From NCBI GenBank assembly GCA_000182565.2, contig KQ257454.1: 56,533 nucleotides of DNA, one strand, 5' to 3'. The DNA is from Spizellomyces punctatus DAOM BR117 (taxonomy: Eukaryota). The translations under genes and the position numbers were made by a program. Below the pieces are notes generated by a model. It did no database searches. It was not told where the DNA came from and was given only the letters and a program-made list of their open reading frames with translations. Below, piece after piece: positions 33,999-40,100 of the stretch; the stretch's first letter is position 1, and each line of letters begins with the position of its first letter.

Positions 33999-34421
33999 CT
34001 ACGCTTTCGCCGGCACTGTTGCGTCCTTTCCCTCCGCCTTTCGCTGCTTTTCCTTTTCGTATTCTTCTTGCACAATTGACAATCGAAGAAGCTAGAACAC
34101 AAAATCAATTCATGTTTCTGGTCAAAATATAGGATTGGGCCCCCCAACGTTCCCTTCTCTCTCTACAGGTGCCGTGAGCTATATAGCACTTAATTCTCAC
34201 GTCCACAGTTCAGCCAAGCGTGGCTGGAGTCACTGCGTCTAACTCCCCTATATATGTTGGATACACACCTCTTTACGATGGTACAGGCACTCTTGATAGT
34301 CTTCAAATTGGTTTGTACATTCTTTGCGTGGCGAGTCACTTTGCACGTAACACTTTGCAAACTCTTGCCAGAAGGGGAAGCACCTCCCTCGCCCACCGTT
34401 CAGGCCGAATCCAGACGACAT
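33999..34421 (-). CDS. NDUFS5: Complex I subunit NDUFS5 (twin CX9C protein)
   Basis: MSSGFGLNGGRGRCFPFWQEFAKCYVQSDSPRKECTNQFEDYQECLYHRKE, then a terminal exon LLRLSIVQEEYEKEK...AKA*. Confidence 0.88.
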
Positions 34422-34596
34422 GGTTGACCAACAAGTCTATTTCGTAGGATCGCAACGTGGAATAACGCCGAGAGCGTGTCTCCTCATTATGTTGGGTCAA
34501 CGGCAACCATGGAAACGCGGGCCGATGGCACCAAGCCTCGTCTGAGTTGCTCTTCTTTCCCGGCGCATTTCACACATCAACACTATTCCCTGCAAC

Positions 34597-35308
34597 ATGG
34601 TAACAACAAGAGATATCGTACTCGGCACTGCGGCTGCGGCAGCTGTCTGTGGAATAGGCTACTTGATCTACTTCGACCAGAGGAGACAAAGAGATCCCGC
34701 GTTCAGGAGAAAGCTGAGTACGTCGAGATCCCTTTTCCCCCACCATGTCACCTCGGCAGAAGTTCTGTTTTCTTTACCATTAAGATTGTGCGTTGTTAAT
34801 ATTGGTATCTCTGGCCATATTTTGCTGCTGGCACTTTTAGGAAAACAACGAAAAGAAGTGGCCAATGCAAAAGAGGCCGATGCAGCAGAGGCCAGGTTAC
34901 GCCAAAAAGCAGCGGCCGCTGCTGCAAGTGCCGCCGGAGGAGGCTTCGATCTTGATGAACCTATACCAACTAGTCCACAAGAGCGAGGAGAATACTTCAT
35001 GAAGCATTTGCAGATGGGAGAAGCGTTACTGGCTCGAGGTAAACATTGATGCTTACAATATTTATGAATGGCGGGAAGCTGACTGCGTTGTTCGATTAGG
35101 TCCTCAAGCTTATGATGTAGCCGCAAAATGCTTCTTCAAAGCACTTCAGGCATACGCTGAGCCAATGAACCTGTTGATGGTCCTTCAGCAATCGGTGCCT
35201 GAGCCTGTGATGAACACTATCATGGAGCTGTACGCCGCTGATGTAGGTGCGGGGGCAGGGCCAGGGGCACGACAGGGACCAACCTTGACGGAGGTTGAAA
35301 TAGAATGA
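34597..35308 (+). CDS. TOM20: Mitochondrial import receptor Tom20 (short isoform)
   Basis: N-terminal TM anchor with GYLIYFDQRRQRDPAFRRKL; YFMKHLQMGEALL...FFKALQAYAEPMNLLMVLQQSVP. Reading through the donor at 35243 reaches TGA at 35306-35308. Confidence 0.9.
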
Positions 35309-37027
35309 ATGGCGTATGGGGGGAAGGACTGTGCATAGTGCTTGGCATTTAGTGTTTATAGGTAGATGGCATATTCTAACACGAGAATCTGTATCATTTT
35401 CATATTCCTGCCCTCAATATTACTTATTGCCCCATCTCGGTGGATCATAGCTGAAGCAGCATCAACAAGAATGTGGGTAACGTGTTTCGCCAGGGTCGCA
35501 CTGTTAGCAATTGAATCGTCTGACATCGCTCAATGACAGACTTCAACCACTTCCCGCCTCAGAGTATGAACGTGAAAGTGAAGGAAGTCCAGCAGGGCAC
35601 TACGCCTGACGGAAAGAGAATTGTACGGAGAGGTCTGAGTGTCATAAAGGACGTGGCGGTTGGGGAGGAGATTTATCGAGAGCGACCAATTGTCTCAACC
35701 CAGTATCTGACCAACGTCGGTACCATGCGTAATTTGACCGGAAGCTACTTGAATGTAAAGCTTATATTGCTCTCAAACCCCAGGGCAAACTGTGCGGTTA
35801 TTGCCTTAAATCCCTCGATCGCGCTGACGGTGTGATTCCTTGTGAGAATTGCCAGGAGGAGAACTACTGCTGCGATTCGTGTCGGGATTCAGCGAGAAAA
35901 GAATTCCATGGCATCCTTTGTGCTGCAGACCCCACAACTAGTGAAGCATACAAGAAGCTCTTGGAGCACTGTTCGGAGAAACACACGAAGCTCCCGCTCC
36001 TGGTTGCTAATTTCCTAGCAAAAATGGTGTACGAAGAAACGGTAAAGCCCGAGGAAGGGACAGAAAAACCCAAATATTCGACGTGGGGTAAGGGACTACT
36101 GCCACGGGTCTTGTAGTTCATTTGGCTCACGAGATGTTTGGGTAGACCACTTGGAGCGTCTCTACGACTTGAAGTTGAAGCCTACCGAGGAAGATCAACA
36201 AGAAGTAGCACTGATCAAGCAGGTTATTGGCAACAAGGTGCCCGGATTTGATGACTGTACGTTTACAGATATGTGAAGTTTCCTCCCACGCTCCCTCATA
36301 CTTCCCTCCTTTCCAGTCCTCACCGAAGATCGATACGTCTTGATCAAAGGCAAGATGTCTTACAATGCATATGCTGTTGCAACCGGAAGCCAGGCGACTC
36401 CTGTGCTTAACAGCGATCCTGTCCGCGGAGCCTTCGCCGCGGACCAGAAAACCGGAGTTGGTTTATATCATGTGACAAGCTTGATTGCTCATTCCTGCGA
36501 TCCAAATGTGGATACCCAATATCAAGACGGTACCAATGAGCTTACCTTGGTTGCCAAGAGCGGCCTAAAAGCCGGAGACGAGCTTTACGTTAGCTACATT
36601 GTTCCTGATGGCAAGGAGACCAAGGAAAGGAGAAAGGAATTGAAAGAAAAGGTGCGGGCCCAGACATGGCGTTGTGACTGTATATGGCTCACTGACTTGG
36701 TTACAGTATTCATTTCATTGCAAATGCACCAAATGCACCTCCTCCATGGATCTTCTCGCTGAAGGCGGGGCTGGCAATGACGAGGCCCTCGACGTGACGC
36801 AAATGACGTCCGTTACAGCAATCATCAACGACGATGACAGTGTCGACGTTACTGCTACCCAAGTGACGACTGTGGTAGATAGTACTTCTACTTCTCTCGG
36901 TGAAGACGGTGTTTCTCTCGAAACCGAGATAACGACCCTTGAAGGGGACGGGACATCCGTGACACTGAAGACAACAGAGCTCGCTGTGCTTGAAACCGTG
37001 GATGAGAGCTCCACGGGTTTGGTTTAG
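34597..37027 (+). CDS. Tom20-SET/MYND (SMYD-like) fusion protein (long isoform)
   Basis: In-frame splice path: GTAGGT donor at 35243 to microexon 35451-35472 (LKQHQQE), then to 35540 (YFNHFPPQSMNVKV...RRGLSVIKDVAVGEEIYRERP). MYND CGYC...CENC...YCCDSC...H...C, SET GLYHVTSLIAHSCDPN and ELYVSY, post-SET FHCKCTKC. Confidence 0.75.
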
Positions 37028-37172
37028 TCGACTATTGGTTGAAACATTTTAAGGGCGATTTCCACTTTGGAGTTGCGTGTATATTTCTTTAGCATGCGCT
37101 TGGCATTGATGCATATTTCCTGTTGCAAATAGCATATGGTTTCATCCCACATACATGATAATGCTAAAATCG

Positions 37173-40100
37173 TCAATTCTGCGCATTCTCAATCGAAAGT
37201 GTTCTGAACTTCTTTCCGATGAGAGCCATGAGCTCCCTCTGATTCAAGTCAGGATTATCTGCCTTTATGGACACAAAACTTTCCTACAATTTCATGAGGG
37301 TAAGCTCCACCGCGACAACCACCTTGAAGCATCCACAACTCACCTTAACAAAGGCAGTAAACCTGTTCTCTTTATACGGCGTCCCATCCTTCCGGATGCG
37401 CTCTGGTTTCAGCAAAATCAGCCGCCCACCACACCGCCCGCATCCGTGGGTCTAACGCAGACCAATGCATCAAGAAAAAAAAATATCAATGCAGCGCAGA
37501 TCGTCGCTTCATACCTGAACATTGATCGACTTGCTATGACGTCCGTATCTGAGCAAGCCTAGTCAATACCTCGGGAGACCAATCTCGATCAATTACCGTA
37601 AGCAACTCACGTTCTCCCACATTCATCTTTGATGCATTGATATTGGTATTTGCAGGCAATATCGTATGAATGACATGTCGTCACTTTAATCTGTGGGTAT
37701 AAACATTCGGCGCGTGCGGCCCTTCGCGGTCCATGTGAGAACTTTGCAATTGTCCGTGAACGCACGACATCATATGCCGTACCAATATTTAAAGACCTTC
37801 CCATGTGGCGGAGTAGAAACCTTGTTCAAGATCCATTGTGCAGCCTAAAAAAGGTCCGTCTGAGATTAAGAAAGCGAGTCACGGCATCCTTGTGACATTG
37901 TCATACATGGCACATTTCGTGTATCAACGTGCTCTGCAATCTTCCTACGAGATGAACATAGGTTGATTTCATCTCGTAACTCAATAGATGGAGAGATCAC
38001 GTACCAATGTCATCGAGGACCTTCATTGAAAGCTCTATACTGGCTACGTGCTCGAGTTTGCCATTCCTTAGCTCCCTGAGGATGCGTCGTCAGTGGAAAT
38101 GTGTTGATGTTCCTATTTGTATGAGTGACGTACGTACTTCTTCAGGAATGTGCGGCCAGCTGTCGTGCGCAAATGCTTGGACCACACTAAACCGAGATCA
38201 GAAGGAAGTCTCGACTCGAAGATTTCGCGATTATATTCCTGAAACAGTTGCTGTGATAACGCTACTCGCTGTCTTTTGAAAGCTGCGTTTGGGGTACCAA
38301 GGCCTGCATTGAACGGCAGTTTGAGCGAATGTCAATGGCCGTGCATGCAATCGATACATACATGCCAGATTGGACGGCGTAAAAGGTCGACGGCCAAGTG
38401 GCGTTCTTTTCGGGGTATCTAAGGCGTCAGTTGACGGCTCCCATACATTGACCAATGGTTGCAGCTTTCGCGGCGTGCCATCGCTGAAGGAACACAATTA
38501 GATGAGCATCATGCCGAAGAACAAGGCAGGCAGAGCTCACAAGACGAGGATCCCACGTTCGCTGTCGTCCGAGTCATCCCACTCCACTTCATCTGCAGTT
38601 CTGTATAAGCACATTTGCAGACATAGATCATTGTTCCGCACAATTTTCCCACCTGCTGGTTCGCTACCCTCAACAGGTTGAAAACCCATGGGAGTTCCTC
38701 TCGCGTCGGTCTTCACTAAATTTGTTGGAATATATTAGCACTTTCTATTCAGCTTTTGACCGACATCACGCCGGGTTCAGGGTGACAGTAACCAAACTGG
38801 AATTGGCACTAAGCGTACCTGGCTCGGGGGTTTCCGGTTTCATTTGGATTCCTGACGGATCGTGTGGGTCGTGACTGTGAGACAGCGGATGCCTTTCGGT
38901 CGTCCTCTCCGCCTCCAGTTTGTCCCGTAAGGAGGTGGGTCCATTTGTCGGTTTCTGGAATTGCGATGGTTGTTCATCTGACGTGCCATCGTTGCGGATT
39001 TCTGGAGCCAGCTCATCCATTGCACCGCCGGGAAGTTGAGAAGAAGGCTCACGTGGAGAACCTACACCATCATTCCCAATGCTAAGTCGATTGAATCTGG
39101 ACAGTAGCGACGTTGGGGAGGGGAGTTCATTGTCGCTGATAGTTCCATCCAGTGAACTTATATCTCTGGAAAAGGACTGACTACTACAGCTGATTGGCGA
39201 AATCCCATTTAACGTTGAATCCACATATTCAAATGATGTCCGGCGTTCAGACGTGTCTAAATTGGCCTGCAAAGGAGTCTCGATGGAGGACACACCGTTA
39301 TCCACAGCTGAATTAACTGTTTAGCACGTTGTGAACTTGGCATTGTGGACATAAGGCAACTTACTGGTCGGATCTTCTTTGTCATGGTGAACCAAGTAAG
39401 TTGTTTCAATATCAAACTTCTCGTGTTCGGTACGGAACGGGGTGACCGAACTCCCATTGGGTTCCACAAAGCTTCCCCGTCTGGCGCTGTAGACATCGCA
39501 TAATGGGCTACCCATAGAATTCATGCTTGGTTCAGCCGCATCACGCAATATGGGATATCGTTTCTCTGAGCGTCCCCGTCTCTTTCGAGTGGTCACGAAT
39601 TGATCTACCGCAACGAACTTGCATTTGCAAGGATTCGTGGTATCAACAACAGTACAGTCTTACCTTTGATGGGGTACATGGACGCACTCGGTGTTTCAAA
39701 AGTCTTGACATTCCTGGGAATCAATGTTTCCATTTCATCAAAGCAGATCTGATCTGCAGCTGTCTTGACAACCACAGGGGTATTGCATATAAAAATATCC
39801 TCTCTGCAAGATGTGTCAGAATCGCATGCCACATCTCTAATGTTCTCGGGCTTGTGATGCACAGTGGTATCTAAAAGTGTGTATTTAGGCACATCATCAT
39901 ATTTGCCAATGCTTGACTGAGTCGCCTCTTCCTCTTCTGAGCAAGAGAAATACTGAGATTCGATTGATCCCTCGTTCAATGAAGGCTTGTCAGCCGCATG
40001 ATCGACCTCGTCAATGTCTGTATCAAAGCCCTCCTTGCAGTCCCCTTTCAGTGTGGTTACTTGGCGGAAGCCCTGCTCTCCCGCACCTGAATTCGTCGTT

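What the first reader, a model, noticed from the sequence alone, without database searches (positions are those of the whole stretch)
34597..37027. Tom20 fused in frame to a SET/MYND (SMYD-like) domain: candidate mitochondria-anchored lysine methyltransferase
Seen: the SET/MYND exons have no convincing start of their own and join Tom20 in frame via a 22-nt microexon (…LYAAD|LKQHQQE|YFNHFPP…). Known: Tom20 is an N-anchored outer-membrane presequence receptor, and SMYD proteins methylate lysines and bind Hsp90. I recall similar MAS20+SET architectures in some fungal annotations, but no functional study. Inference: this would place a methyltransferase or chaperone-binding module at the TOM gate, where it could act on incoming precursors.
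Basis: partly seen in the sequence, partly recalled or inferred. Interest (0 to 1): 0.75.

Follow-up and report, generated by a model that had tools for sequence, protein, structure and literature searches.

The report
Tom20 fused to SMYD-like methyltransferase
This chytrid gene appears to make both an ordinary mitochondrial import receptor (Tom20) and a longer form that carries a SMYD-type lysine methyltransferase; the fusion is already annotated and is widespread in fungi, but nobody has studied what it does.

Summary
Nine GT..AG exons at 34597-37027, including the 22-nt microexon 35451-35472, translate exactly to the public protein SPPG_03192 of Spizellomyces punctatus, 576 aa.

The fusion is not a one-off. 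Of the 150 best 50%-identity cluster representatives, 72 carry both halves. Named examples come from chytrids, Blastocladiomycota, Mucoromycota, Zoopagomycota, Basidiomycota and two ichthyosporeans, one of them a transcript assembly. The junction peptide is among the best conserved parts of the protein. A 2022 survey already lists it as fungal SET "Group 25", function unknown.

Exon 3 can read on to a stop at 35308, giving a 175-aa Tom20 with an acidic ...EVEIE C-terminus like stand-alone Tom20s. The one usable RNA run, which is 3'-biased, shows a transcript end at about 35400-35433, inside the "intron" of the fused model. That run had no coverage at the fusion junctions, so the fused mRNA is not shown here.

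The SET part folds like the SMYD2/3 catalytic lobe but lacks their C-terminal lobe, so Hsp90 binding is unsupported.

Verdict: a real, already known, unstudied architecture that probably gives two products.

The parts
34597..34717 (+). Exon 1: start codon, Tom20 N-terminal membrane helix and basic stretch
   Evidence: Pfam MAS20 profile positions 1-29, E 7.2e-9. The model has a helix at residues 4-32. Part of the exact match to P0004.
34841..35038 (+). Exon 2: Tom20 linker and first receptor helices
   Evidence: Pfam MAS20 profile 26-90. The intron 35039-35099 that follows is confirmed by 3 RNA reads with a GT..AG joint.
35100..35242 (+). Exon 3 core: the end of the Tom20 receptor domain, shared by both products
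   Evidence: Pfam MAS20 profile 94-132 of 132. Structural match to C. thermophilum Tom20 9i7s_K, Z 13.6, rmsd 2.1 over 80 residues.
35243..35308 (+). Read-on of exon 3: a 21-residue acidic Tom20 tail ending ...EVEIE, then stop TGA. It is the 3' end of the short 175-aa Tom20 coding sequence, and at the same time the 5' end of intron 3 of the fused model (donor GTAGGT at 35243).
   Evidence: Translation. RNA depth is highest here, 82 in bin 35246-35339. Tails of the same kind occur in short Tom20 proteins and stand-alone Tom20 loci.
35309..35433 (+). Probable 3' UTR and polyadenylation region of the short Tom20 mRNA
   Evidence: Plus-strand depth is 44.2 in bin 35340-35433 and falls to 0.93 in bin 35434-35527. 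The longest A-run in 35380-35470 is 2, so internal priming is unlikely. The exact end is not resolved.
35243..35450 (+). Intron 3 of the fused model, 208 nt, GTAGGT...TCATAG
   Evidence: The other 7 introns are 55-123 nt. An in-frame TAG directly precedes the microexon.
35451..35472 (+). 22-nt microexon encoding LKQHQQE plus the first base of Tyr162
   Evidence: Part of the exact match to P0004. Homologous peptides occur in Geranomyces, Phlyctochytrium and others. It contains no ATG in frame.
35473..35539 (+). Intron 4 (GTGGGT...TGACAG). It holds an ATG at 35533 that is in frame with the next exon.
35540..35715 (+). Exon 5: conserved junction motif (Y-F-x-x-F-P-P-x-x-M-N-V) and the first SET strands. 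Met171 is at 35566-35568.
   Evidence: Column counts. The model has strands from residue 173. SMYD2/3 residue 1-5 aligns to about residue 165-170.
35784..36087 (+). Exon 6: MYND zinc finger inserted into the SET domain
   Evidence: Pfam zf-MYND E 5.7e-5, 23.5 bits against a cut-off of 22.7, on the exon alone. C224 is invariant; C227, C249 and C253 are nearly invariant.
36146..36256 (+). Exon 7: helical SET-I region
   Evidence: Exact match to P0004. Inside the SMYD2/3 structural alignment, residues 167-492.
36317..36651 (+). Exon 8: C-terminal SET core (GxG, A-H-S-C-D-P-N, G-D-E-L-Y-V-S-Y)
   Evidence: Pfam SET E 4.2e-8. Aligned to SMYD3 residues 192-278, E 2.8e-13. Column counts.
36707..37027 (+). 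Exon 9: post-SET C-x-C-x-x-C, then an acidic Ser/Thr-rich tail of low confidence, then stop TAG
   Evidence: C475 31/46, C477 32/46, C480 30/46. pLDDT is below 50 over 491-511, 514-525 and 562-576.
37028..37125 (+). 3' UTR of the SET-containing mRNA (end not resolved)
   Evidence: Second 3' depth peak: 58.6 in bin 36938-37031 and 44.5 in bin 37032-37125.

Best explanation
This is one transcription unit with two protein products, chosen by competition between polyadenylation and splicing.

(a) Short product. If the donor at 35242|35243 is not used, exon 3 reads on for 21 codons to the stop at 35308, and the mRNA ends near 35400-35433. The result is a canonical 175-aa Tom20 whose free acidic C-terminus (...EVEIE) is of the kind that docks Tom20 to the TPR clamp of Tom70.

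(b) Long product. If the donor is used, the tail, stop, 3' UTR and poly(A) site are removed as a 208-nt intron. The Tom20 core is joined through the 22-nt microexon to SET/MYND exons. The result is a 576-aa protein held in the mitochondrial outer membrane by the Tom20 N-terminal helix. Its last Tom20 helix runs straight into a cytosol-facing SMYD-type split SET domain.

What is shown: the reading frame, its identity with the public model, the folds, the conservation of the fusion and its junction, and the transcript end of the short form.

What is inferred: that the long mRNA is made in this organism, that the long protein sits at the TOM complex, and that it is an active lysine methyltransferase acting on non-histone proteins near the import gate (precursors or docked chaperones).
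For: Long form.
- The exon model matches P0004 exactly, with all introns GT..AG.
- That annotation was built with RNA-Seq (passages of PMC4991717). A 22-nt exon is unlikely to be called without transcript evidence; this last point is my inference.
- Of the 150 listed cluster representatives, 72 match both halves. 49 of them are near-complete, and Tom20 precedes SET in 68 of the 72.
- Named carriers are Thoreauomyces, Fimicolochytrium, Rhizophlyctis, Basidiobolus, Podila, Galerina, Allomyces, Smittium and Sphaeroforma. Amoebidium also carries it, and there the fused ORF lies on a single transcript-assembly contig.
- MAS20 and SET are both found in 13 of 13 diverse members scanned.
- A junction motif lies within 120 aa after Tom20 in 50 of 72, and at 6-13 aa in 41 of those. 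Column conservation: Y162 41/46, F166 39/46, P167 43/46.
- The microexon has a stop directly upstream and no ATG.
- The model has pLDDT 82.4 and pTM 0.69, with one helix at 141-165 running across the junction. The 10-residue blocks 151-160 and 161-170 score 88 and 93.
- Fold matches: SMYD2 4wuy Z 22.5 and SMYD3 Z 21.0 over model residues 167-492; Tom20 9i7s_K Z 13.6.

Short form.
- Plus-strand depth rises 6.7, 8.6, 40, 82, 44.2 across 34964-35433 and then drops to 0.93 and 0. This has the same shape as the peak at the SET gene's end.
- The tail ends I-E-stop.
- By my reading of the listing, 12 of 18 short Tom20 proteins with tails of 9-24 aa end in [VILM][DE].
- 20 of 27 distinct tails of stand-alone Tom20 loci in metagenome contigs end the same way.
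- The C-terminal DDVE of Tom20 binds the Tom70 and AIP TPR clamps (passages read).
- No second S. punctatus Tom20 appeared among the short proteins.

Same layout elsewhere. In the 5 metagenome loci with both halves that I displayed (L019, L056, L066, L070, L079), the Tom20 frame runs into a conserved tail with an in-frame stop. The junction exon lies about 200-330 nt further on.
Against: - No read joining 35242->35451 or 35472->35540 was reported. Depth there was 0-1 in a 3'-biased run of which about 6% was read, so this neither supports nor refutes the long form.
- The RNA evidence is one run of one sample, and the 3' bias is inferred from the depth profile.
- Annotation pipelines do merge neighbours here. 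An 845-aa Geranomyces model joins Tom20, SET and the next gene, an aminotransferase.
- 38 of the 150 representatives are SET-only. 5 of the 21 whose N-termini I printed start at the conserved Met of M-N-V, so a SET-only product is possible.
- Thoreauomyces has a separate short Tom20 that is only 47% identical to the Tom20 part of its fused protein. A paralogue can therefore supply the short form in some species.
- The whole genome is not held, so a second Tom20 gene in S. punctatus is not excluded.
- The Asn of the SET N-H-S-C motif is Ala here and A/T/S/G in 33 of 46. The catalytic Tyr452 is Y in 29, F in 10 and W in 6 of 46.
- Localisation, SAM binding and substrates are untested.
Confidence: 0.6

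Rival explanations
1. These are two independent neighbouring genes that gene callers have merged. Tom20 ends at 35308. A separate SET/MYND mRNA starts between about 35310 and 35530 and is translated from ATG 35533 or from Met171 (35566).
For: - A strong transcript end lies upstream of the microexon.
- In-frame ATGs lie at 35533 and 35566.
- 38 of 150 representatives are SET-only, and 5 of the 21 printed begin at M-N-V.
- SMYD2/3 residue 1-5 aligns at about residue 165-170, so Met171 sits where a SMYD protein normally starts.
- Merging errors are documented in this neighbourhood: P0011, 845 aa.
Against: - The peptide upstream of Met171 is conserved as protein (Y162 41/46, F166 39/46, P167 43/46), so it is translated and needs an upstream start.
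- In the window the microexon has no ATG and a stop directly before it. In loci L019 and L056 there is likewise no ATG between the nearest upstream stop and the motif.
- Tom20 sits directly before the motif in 41 of 72 proteins.
- A transcript-assembly ORF from Amoebidium carries both halves.
- The Phlyctochytrium model reads from Tom20 into SET with no stop even with the intervening 36 aa retained.
Confidence: 0.12
2. This is a single-product gene. The fused 576-aa protein is the functional Tom20 of this organism. The transcripts ending near 35430 are by-products of premature polyadenylation inside a long intron and have no separate role.
For: - The public annotation lists only the fused product.
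- The fused form is conserved very widely.
Against: - The peak at the proximal end (82) is at least as high as the peak at the distal end (58.6).
- The read-on frame is open for exactly 21 codons and ends in the acidic hydrophobic-Glu C-terminus typical of Tom20. A free C-terminus of that kind is what binds Tom70.
- Basidiomycete-like loci keep a conserved tail and stop in the same position.
Confidence: 0.1
3. The long form is real, but its SET/MYND module is a binding or scaffolding domain and not an active methyltransferase.
For: - The Asn of N-H-S-C, a SAM-contacting residue in canonical SET enzymes (recalled), is Ala in the window and A/T/S/G in 33 of 46 family members.
- Tyr452 is replaced by F or W in 16 of 46.
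Against: The rest of the cofactor and catalytic framework is conserved: G405 38/46, G407 29/46 (+A 13), Y409 38/46, H417 36/46, S418 39/46, C419 34/46, P421 39/46. The post-SET cysteines are kept in 30-32/46, and most of the misses are gaps. The fold superposes on SMYD2/3 at Z 21-22.5.
Confidence: 0.2

Closest known systems
Canonical Tom20 (MAS20, PF02064), e.g. Chaetomium thermophilum Tom20 in the TOM holo complex (PDB 9i7s) and human TOMM20
   Same: - N-terminal membrane helix, basic stretch and helical receptor domain.
- Pfam match 120.3 bits against a cut-off of 27.
- PDB sequence match E 8.7e-18.
- Z 13.6, rmsd 2.1.
- The short product ends in an acidic hydrophobic-Glu C-terminus, like the DDVE of Tom20.
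   Different: The same core can be spliced to about 420 further residues. The long product lacks the free acidic Tom20 C-terminus.
SMYD lysine methyltransferases (human SMYD2, SMYD3, SMYD1)
   Same: - SET domain split by a MYND finger, followed by a post-SET C-x-C-x-x-C.
- SMYD3 E 2.8e-13.
- Foldseek E 1.1e-15.
- Z 22.5 and 21.0 over model residues 167-492.
   Different: - Only SMYD residues about 1-297 are matched; the C-terminal helical lobe is absent.
- Asn of N-H-S-C is replaced.
- There is an N-terminal membrane-anchored Tom20 instead of a free N-terminus.
Fungal SET-domain 'Group 25' of the survey in J Fungi 2022 (PMC9692433)
   Same: The group is defined there by a MAS20 domain upstream of SET and is reported absent from Ascomycota (passages read). 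The window's protein has this architecture. None of the named fused proteins here is an ascomycete.
   Different: The paper gives no function, no junction analysis, no isoforms and no non-fungal members. Here the fusion is also found in two ichthyosporeans. I did not see its Table S1, so I cannot say whether SPPG_03192 itself is listed.
Toxoplasma gondii apical complex lysine methyltransferase (AKMT, PDB 6fnd)
   Same: A SMYD-related SET enzyme. It matches in sequence at E 3.2e-6 and in fold at Z 15.1. That it works at a fixed cytoplasmic site rather than on chromatin is suggested only by its name, 'Apical complex lysine methyltransferase'; its site of action was not checked in any call.
   Different: A much weaker match than SMYD2/3, and it has no membrane anchor or Tom20 part.
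Switches between an intronic poly(A) site and a downstream splice, as in immunoglobulin heavy-chain secreted versus membrane forms (recalled, not checked here)
   Same: The proposed logic is the same. A 5' splice site inside the last exon of the short form competes with a poly(A) site that lies within the intron of the long form.
   Different: This is an analogy only. The competition has not been measured at this locus.

Membership tests
Tom20 / MAS20 (PF02064) | Full-length match to the family profile above the curated cut-off | tested here: met
   P0004 residues 12-149 match profile 1-132 of 132, 120.3 bits against a cut-off of 27, E 7.5e-35.
Tom20 / MAS20 (PF02064) | N-terminal single membrane helix followed by a basic stretch | tested here: met
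   The model has a helix at residues 4-32. The hydrophobic run and the Arg/Lys-rich stretch are read directly from exon 1. No dedicated membrane-helix predictor was run.
Tom20 / MAS20 (PF02064) | Receptor-domain fold as in solved Tom20 | tested here: met
   9i7s_K: Z 13.6, rmsd 2.1, 80 residues, model 76-156. Sequence match E 8.7e-18.
Tom20 / MAS20 (PF02064) | Acidic extreme C-terminus (DDVE-like) that binds dicarboxylate-clamp TPR proteins | tested here: met
   Met for the short product only, which ends ...EVEIE-stop. 20 of 27 distinct stand-alone tails end [VILM][DE]. The long product does not have it.
Tom20 / MAS20 (PF02064) | Presequence binding and residence in the TOM complex | not testable with these tools
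   Needs biochemistry or localisation.
SMYD-type SET methyltransferases | SET domain split by a MYND zinc finger | tested here: met
   N-SET strands at 173-216, zf-MYND at 224-266, C-SET at 406-452. The MYND score is 23.5 bits against 22.7 on the exon alone, but 19.5, below the cut-off, on the whole protein. The MYND cysteines are conserved.
SMYD-type SET methyltransferases | Post-SET cysteine cluster C-x-C-x-x-C | tested here: met
   C475, C477 and C480 are present, conserved in 31, 32 and 30 of 46. They align to the SMYD3 cluster.
SMYD-type SET methyltransferases | Canonical cofactor motifs GxG, N-H-S-C and E-L-x-x-x-Y | tested here: inconclusive
   GxG, H-S-C and the Tyr are present. The Asn is Ala in the window and is not the majority residue in the family.
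SMYD-type SET methyltransferases | C-terminal helical (TPR-like) lobe of SMYD1-4 | tested here: not met
   The best alignments stop at SMYD2/3 residues 270-297 of about 430, and at model residues 483-499. Residues 491-576 are of low confidence and are not predicted helical.
SMYD-type SET methyltransferases | SAM-dependent lysine methylation | not testable with these tools
   Needs an enzyme assay.
Fungal SET 'Group 25' (PMC9692433) | MAS20 domain upstream of the SET domain in one protein | tested here: met
   for P0004. Definition read.
Fungal SET 'Group 25' (PMC9692433) | Listed in that paper's own tree or table | not tested
   Table S1 and Figure 7 were not seen. 'Spizellomyces' does not occur in the main text.

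The most novel reading that the evidence does not exclude
The Tom20 locus of non-ascomycete fungi and their unicellular holozoan relatives is an ancient two-output gene. A splice-versus-polyadenylation choice at the end of the receptor domain yields either the canonical receptor, with its Tom70-docking acidic C-terminus, or a receptor permanently coupled to a SMYD-type lysine methyltransferase. The enzyme form sits at the TOM gate and methylates incoming precursors or the chaperones that deliver them.
Probability: 0.3. Interest if true: 0.8.

Novelty: already known. Interest (0 to 1): 0.5.

Why it matters
Tom20 is the main presequence receptor of mitochondria, yet no enzyme is known to be built into it.

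Here a SMYD-type module is joined to Tom20 by a conserved rigid helix. The fusion occurs in lineages from ichthyosporeans to mushrooms and is absent from the ascomycete model yeasts, where import has mostly been studied (absence as reported in PMC9692433, passages).

If the long form is active, it would be a lysine methyltransferase positioned at the import gate. That would make two questions directly testable: are precursors or delivering chaperones methylated at the gate, and does the cell tune the ratio of plain to enzyme-bearing receptor through 3'-end choice?

If it proves inactive or of low abundance, the locus is still a useful warning. The public model hides a canonical Tom20 product.

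Tried and rejected
- RNA holders. No RNA holder was listed for the stretch. Only a same-species raw-read run (X6) could be laid.
- Junction reads. None were reported, but depth at 35434-35715 was 0-1, so nothing follows from that. X1-X3 are low-depth DNA contigs colinear with the window and are uninformative.
- Whole genome. It is not held, so I could not search for a second Tom20 gene or fetch other chytrid genomes.
- Earlier findings of this scan. Nothing was found for this place. The two word hits were unrelated algal SMYD fusions.
- Metagenome scan. It was repeated with 8 chytrid sequences. No chytrid-like locus with both halves was recovered; the 7 loci with both halves look basidiomycete-like.
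- Hsp90 or chaperone binding by the SET part. Rejected for lack of the SMYD C-terminal lobe.
- Internal priming as the cause of the proximal RNA peak. Rejected; the longest A-run is 2.
- Own first exon for the microexon. Rejected; there is a stop directly upstream and no ATG.
- Thoreauomyces short and fused proteins as one locus. Rejected; they are 47% identical.
- Literature. Six searches found no functional study of a Tom20-SET protein. Only PMC9692433 mentions the architecture.
- Not used: complex prediction and the ESM Atlas.
Full report
**1. What is in the sequence**

Reading 34000-37800 and the stop-to-stop frames shows a plus-strand gene that starts at ATG 34597. Exon by exon, Pfam finds:
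- MAS20 (Tom20) in three exons. The profile is complete, positions 1-132 of 132, by the middle of the third exon.
- A MYND finger in 35790-36089.
- A SET domain in 36319-36651.

A database search with the third Tom20 exon returned three chytrid proteins that carry both PF02064 and PF00856. Their cluster mate P0004 is SPPG_03192 (XP_016609419.1, UniProt A0A0L0HKF8) of Spizellomyces punctatus DAOM BR117, 576 aa.

Joining the exons 34597-34717, 34841-35038, 35100-35242, 35451-35472, 35540-35715, 35784-36087, 36146-36256, 36317-36651 and 36707-37027 gives P0004 exactly. All eight introns are GT..AG. That annotation was made with RNA-Seq support (passages of PMC4991717).

**2. The fusion is widespread and its junction is conserved**

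A full HMMER scan of 1.84 billion cluster representatives with the Geranomyces fused protein gave 2107 hits at E <= 1e-3 and listed the best 150. I split P0004 into its Tom20 part and its SET part and scored the 150:
- 72 match both halves.
- 40 match Tom20 only.
- 38 match SET only.
- 49 of the 72 are near-complete.
- Tom20 precedes SET in 68 of the 72.

Twenty representatives were looked up by name. Those that carry both halves and are named come from:
- Chytrids: Thoreauomyces, Fimicolochytrium, Rhizophlyctis.
- Other fungi: Allomyces, Basidiobolus, Smittium, Podila and the mushroom Galerina.
- Ichthyosporeans: Sphaeroforma and Amoebidium. The Amoebidium entry is an ORF on a single transcript-assembly contig.

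In addition, the cluster members Coelomomyces P0171 and Lobulomyces P0172 show a Tom20 N-terminus followed by the junction motif and SET start in the printed first 230 residues.

Thirteen diverse members all have MAS20 and SET by Pfam. Seven of the 13 also have zf-MYND at E <= 0.01.

In a 46-sequence alignment, the residues just after the Tom20 domain are among the most conserved in the protein: Y162 41/46, [YF]163 42/46, F166 39/46, P167 43/46, N172 31/46, V173 36/46. A junction motif lies 6-13 residues after the Tom20 match in 41 of the 72. Tyr162 is the codon split between the microexon and exon 5 in the window.

This conservation shows that the junction is translated. The microexon has no ATG and is preceded directly by a stop, so the reading frame must come from upstream.

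**3.

If the donor at 35243 is not used, exon 3 continues for 21 codons to TGA at 35306-35308. That gives a 175-aa Tom20 ending ...EVEIE.

Short Tom20 proteins in the databases have tails of the same kind. By my reading of the listing, 12 of 18 with tails of 9-24 aa end in a hydrophobic residue followed by Asp or Glu. Among stand-alone Tom20 loci recovered from metagenome contigs, 20 of 27 distinct tails end the same way, and four of the remaining seven end in Asp-Asp.

The literature describes the C-terminal DDVE of Tom20 as the motif that binds the TPR clamp of Tom70 and of AIP (passages read). A free acidic C-terminus is therefore a functional feature of Tom20, and the long form cannot have it.

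**4. RNA evidence**

Only one RNA run of the same species label could be laid. It has 60-nt reads and about 6% of it was read. Its profile is 3'-biased.

On the plus strand the depth rises 6.7, 8.6, 40, 82, 44.2 over 34964-35433 and then falls to 0.93 and 0. A second ramp of 4.85, 16.3, 58.6, 44.5 ends after the stop at 37027.

First mates lie on the minus strand over the minus-strand neighbour. The plus-strand reads are therefore sense reads of this gene.

The proximal peak reads straight through the proposed donor and ends before the microexon. There is no A-run there that could cause internal priming.

So a short Tom20 mRNA with its own 3' end exists. The same run has essentially no coverage at 35434-35715, so it says nothing about the fused junctions. 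The only joint it reports is Tom20 intron 2.

**5. The same layout in other genomes**

A metagenome scan gave 80 loci, and 7 of them carry both halves. In the five I displayed (L019, L056, L066, L070, L079), the Tom20 frame runs into a conserved tail with an in-frame stop. The junction exon with its Y-Y-x-x-F-P motif lies about 200-330 nt further downstream. This is the same arrangement as in the window. These loci match basidiomycete proteins best.

Intron 3 of the window is 208 nt, against 55-123 nt for the other seven introns. That fits an intron that has to hold a tail, a stop, a 3' UTR and a poly(A) site.

**6. Structure and enzyme features**

The AlphaFold model made from the 46-sequence alignment has pLDDT 82.4 and pTM 0.69. 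One helix, residues 141-165, runs from the last Tom20 helix across the junction.

- Residues 167-492 superpose on SMYD2 (4wuy, Z 22.5, rmsd 4.0, 264 residues) and on SMYD3 (Z 21.0), but only on their residues about 1-297. The C-terminal helical lobe of SMYD1-4 is absent.
- Residues 76-156 superpose on Chaetomium Tom20 (Z 13.6, rmsd 2.1).
- Sequence matches agree: Tom20 9i7s_K at E 8.7e-18 and SMYD3 at E 2.8e-13.
- The cofactor framework is largely conserved (GxG, H-S-C-x-P-N, E-L-x-x-x-Y, post-SET cysteines).
- The Asn of N-H-S-C is Ala here and A/T/S/G in 33 of 46. Tyr452 is F or W in 16 of 46.
- Activity is therefore plausible but not assured.
- Met171 aligns with the position where SMYD2/3 begin. 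5 of the 21 SET-only models whose N-termini I printed start at that Met. A third, soluble SET-only product cannot be excluded.

**7. Points against the two-product reading**

- Gene callers do merge neighbours here. One Geranomyces model of 845 aa joins Tom20, SET and the following aminotransferase.
- Thoreauomyces has a separate short Tom20 that is only 47% identical to the Tom20 part of its fused protein, so it is a paralogue.
- The window's genome is not held, so a second Tom20 in S. punctatus is not excluded. None appeared among short proteins in the database.

**8. What is known**

A survey of fungal SET proteins (PMC9692433; passages read) defines "Group 25" by a MAS20 domain upstream of SET, reports it absent from Ascomycota and gives no function. 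Six full-text searches found no study of such a protein.

The architecture itself is therefore already known and already annotated for this very gene. Three things appear to be undescribed: the two-product layout, the conserved junction helix and the presence in ichthyosporeans.

**9. Verdict**

- Observation: confirmed.
- Interpretation: partly supported. A membrane-anchored SMYD-type module on Tom20 is the best reading of the long product. The Hsp90-binding idea is not supported, and the locus also makes a normal Tom20.
- Confidence in the two-product model: 0.6.
- Novelty of the finding as given: already known.
- Interest: 0.5. The family is widespread, unstudied and directly testable.

Noticed in passing
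window 34248-34436 (- strand): A small CHCH-type ORF resembling complex I subunit NDUFS5 (Pfam E 2.4e-4, 21.8 bits against a cut-off of 21.2). It lies head to head with Tom20, about 160 nt from its ATG. Minus-strand RNA depth is 64.9 at 34400-34493. Two mitochondrial genes may share a bidirectional promoter.
   Followed up: partly
window 37032-37283 (- strand): A weak HMG-box-like ORF at 37173-37283 (E 0.006, below the cut-off) converges on the SET gene. Minus-strand reads (depth 7-13) overlap the plus-strand 3' UTR at 37032-37200, so the two transcripts may overlap at their 3' ends.
   Followed up: no
window 38113-38331 (- strand): An ORF with a borderline SprT-like match (E 1.2e-5, 25.5 bits against a cut-off of 25.6).
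   Followed up: no
P0002 (Phlyctochytrium arcticum model), residues about 157-192: The public model keeps 36 low-complexity residues in frame between the Tom20 core and the junction peptide. In that species the intervening DNA would then have no in-frame stop. Either the intron is retained in the model or the layout differs from the window.
   Followed up: no
P0011 (Geranomyces variabilis, 845 aa) and P0005/P0007/P0012: In Geranomyces the gene downstream of the SET part is a class I/II aminotransferase. One model fuses all three, and the 90% cluster lumps the aminotransferases with the fused proteins. This is a reminder that merged models occur in this neighbourhood.
   Followed up: partly
P0057 versus P0014 (Thoreauomyces humboldtii): This chytrid has a stand-alone 193-aa Tom20 on one contig and a fused Tom20-SET on another. 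The Tom20 parts are 47% identical, which suggests duplication with division of labour, or a mixed assembly.
   Followed up: partly
window 35566-35568 (Met171) and alignment A1: The Met of the M-N-V motif is kept in 25 of 46 fused proteins and aligns with the natural N-terminus of SMYD2/3. 5 of the 21 SET-only gene models whose N-termini I printed start there. It may be the relic of the ancestral SET start codon, or an internal start for a soluble form.
   Followed up: partly
loci L019, L066, L070, L079 and proteins P0060, P0155: Basidiomycete-like Tom20 tails share a conserved Ser/Trp-containing acidic motif before ...T-D-P-G. Some fused models include this tail and splice after T-D-P-G, while others skip it. 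The donor position therefore seems to differ between lineages or isoforms.
   Followed up: partly
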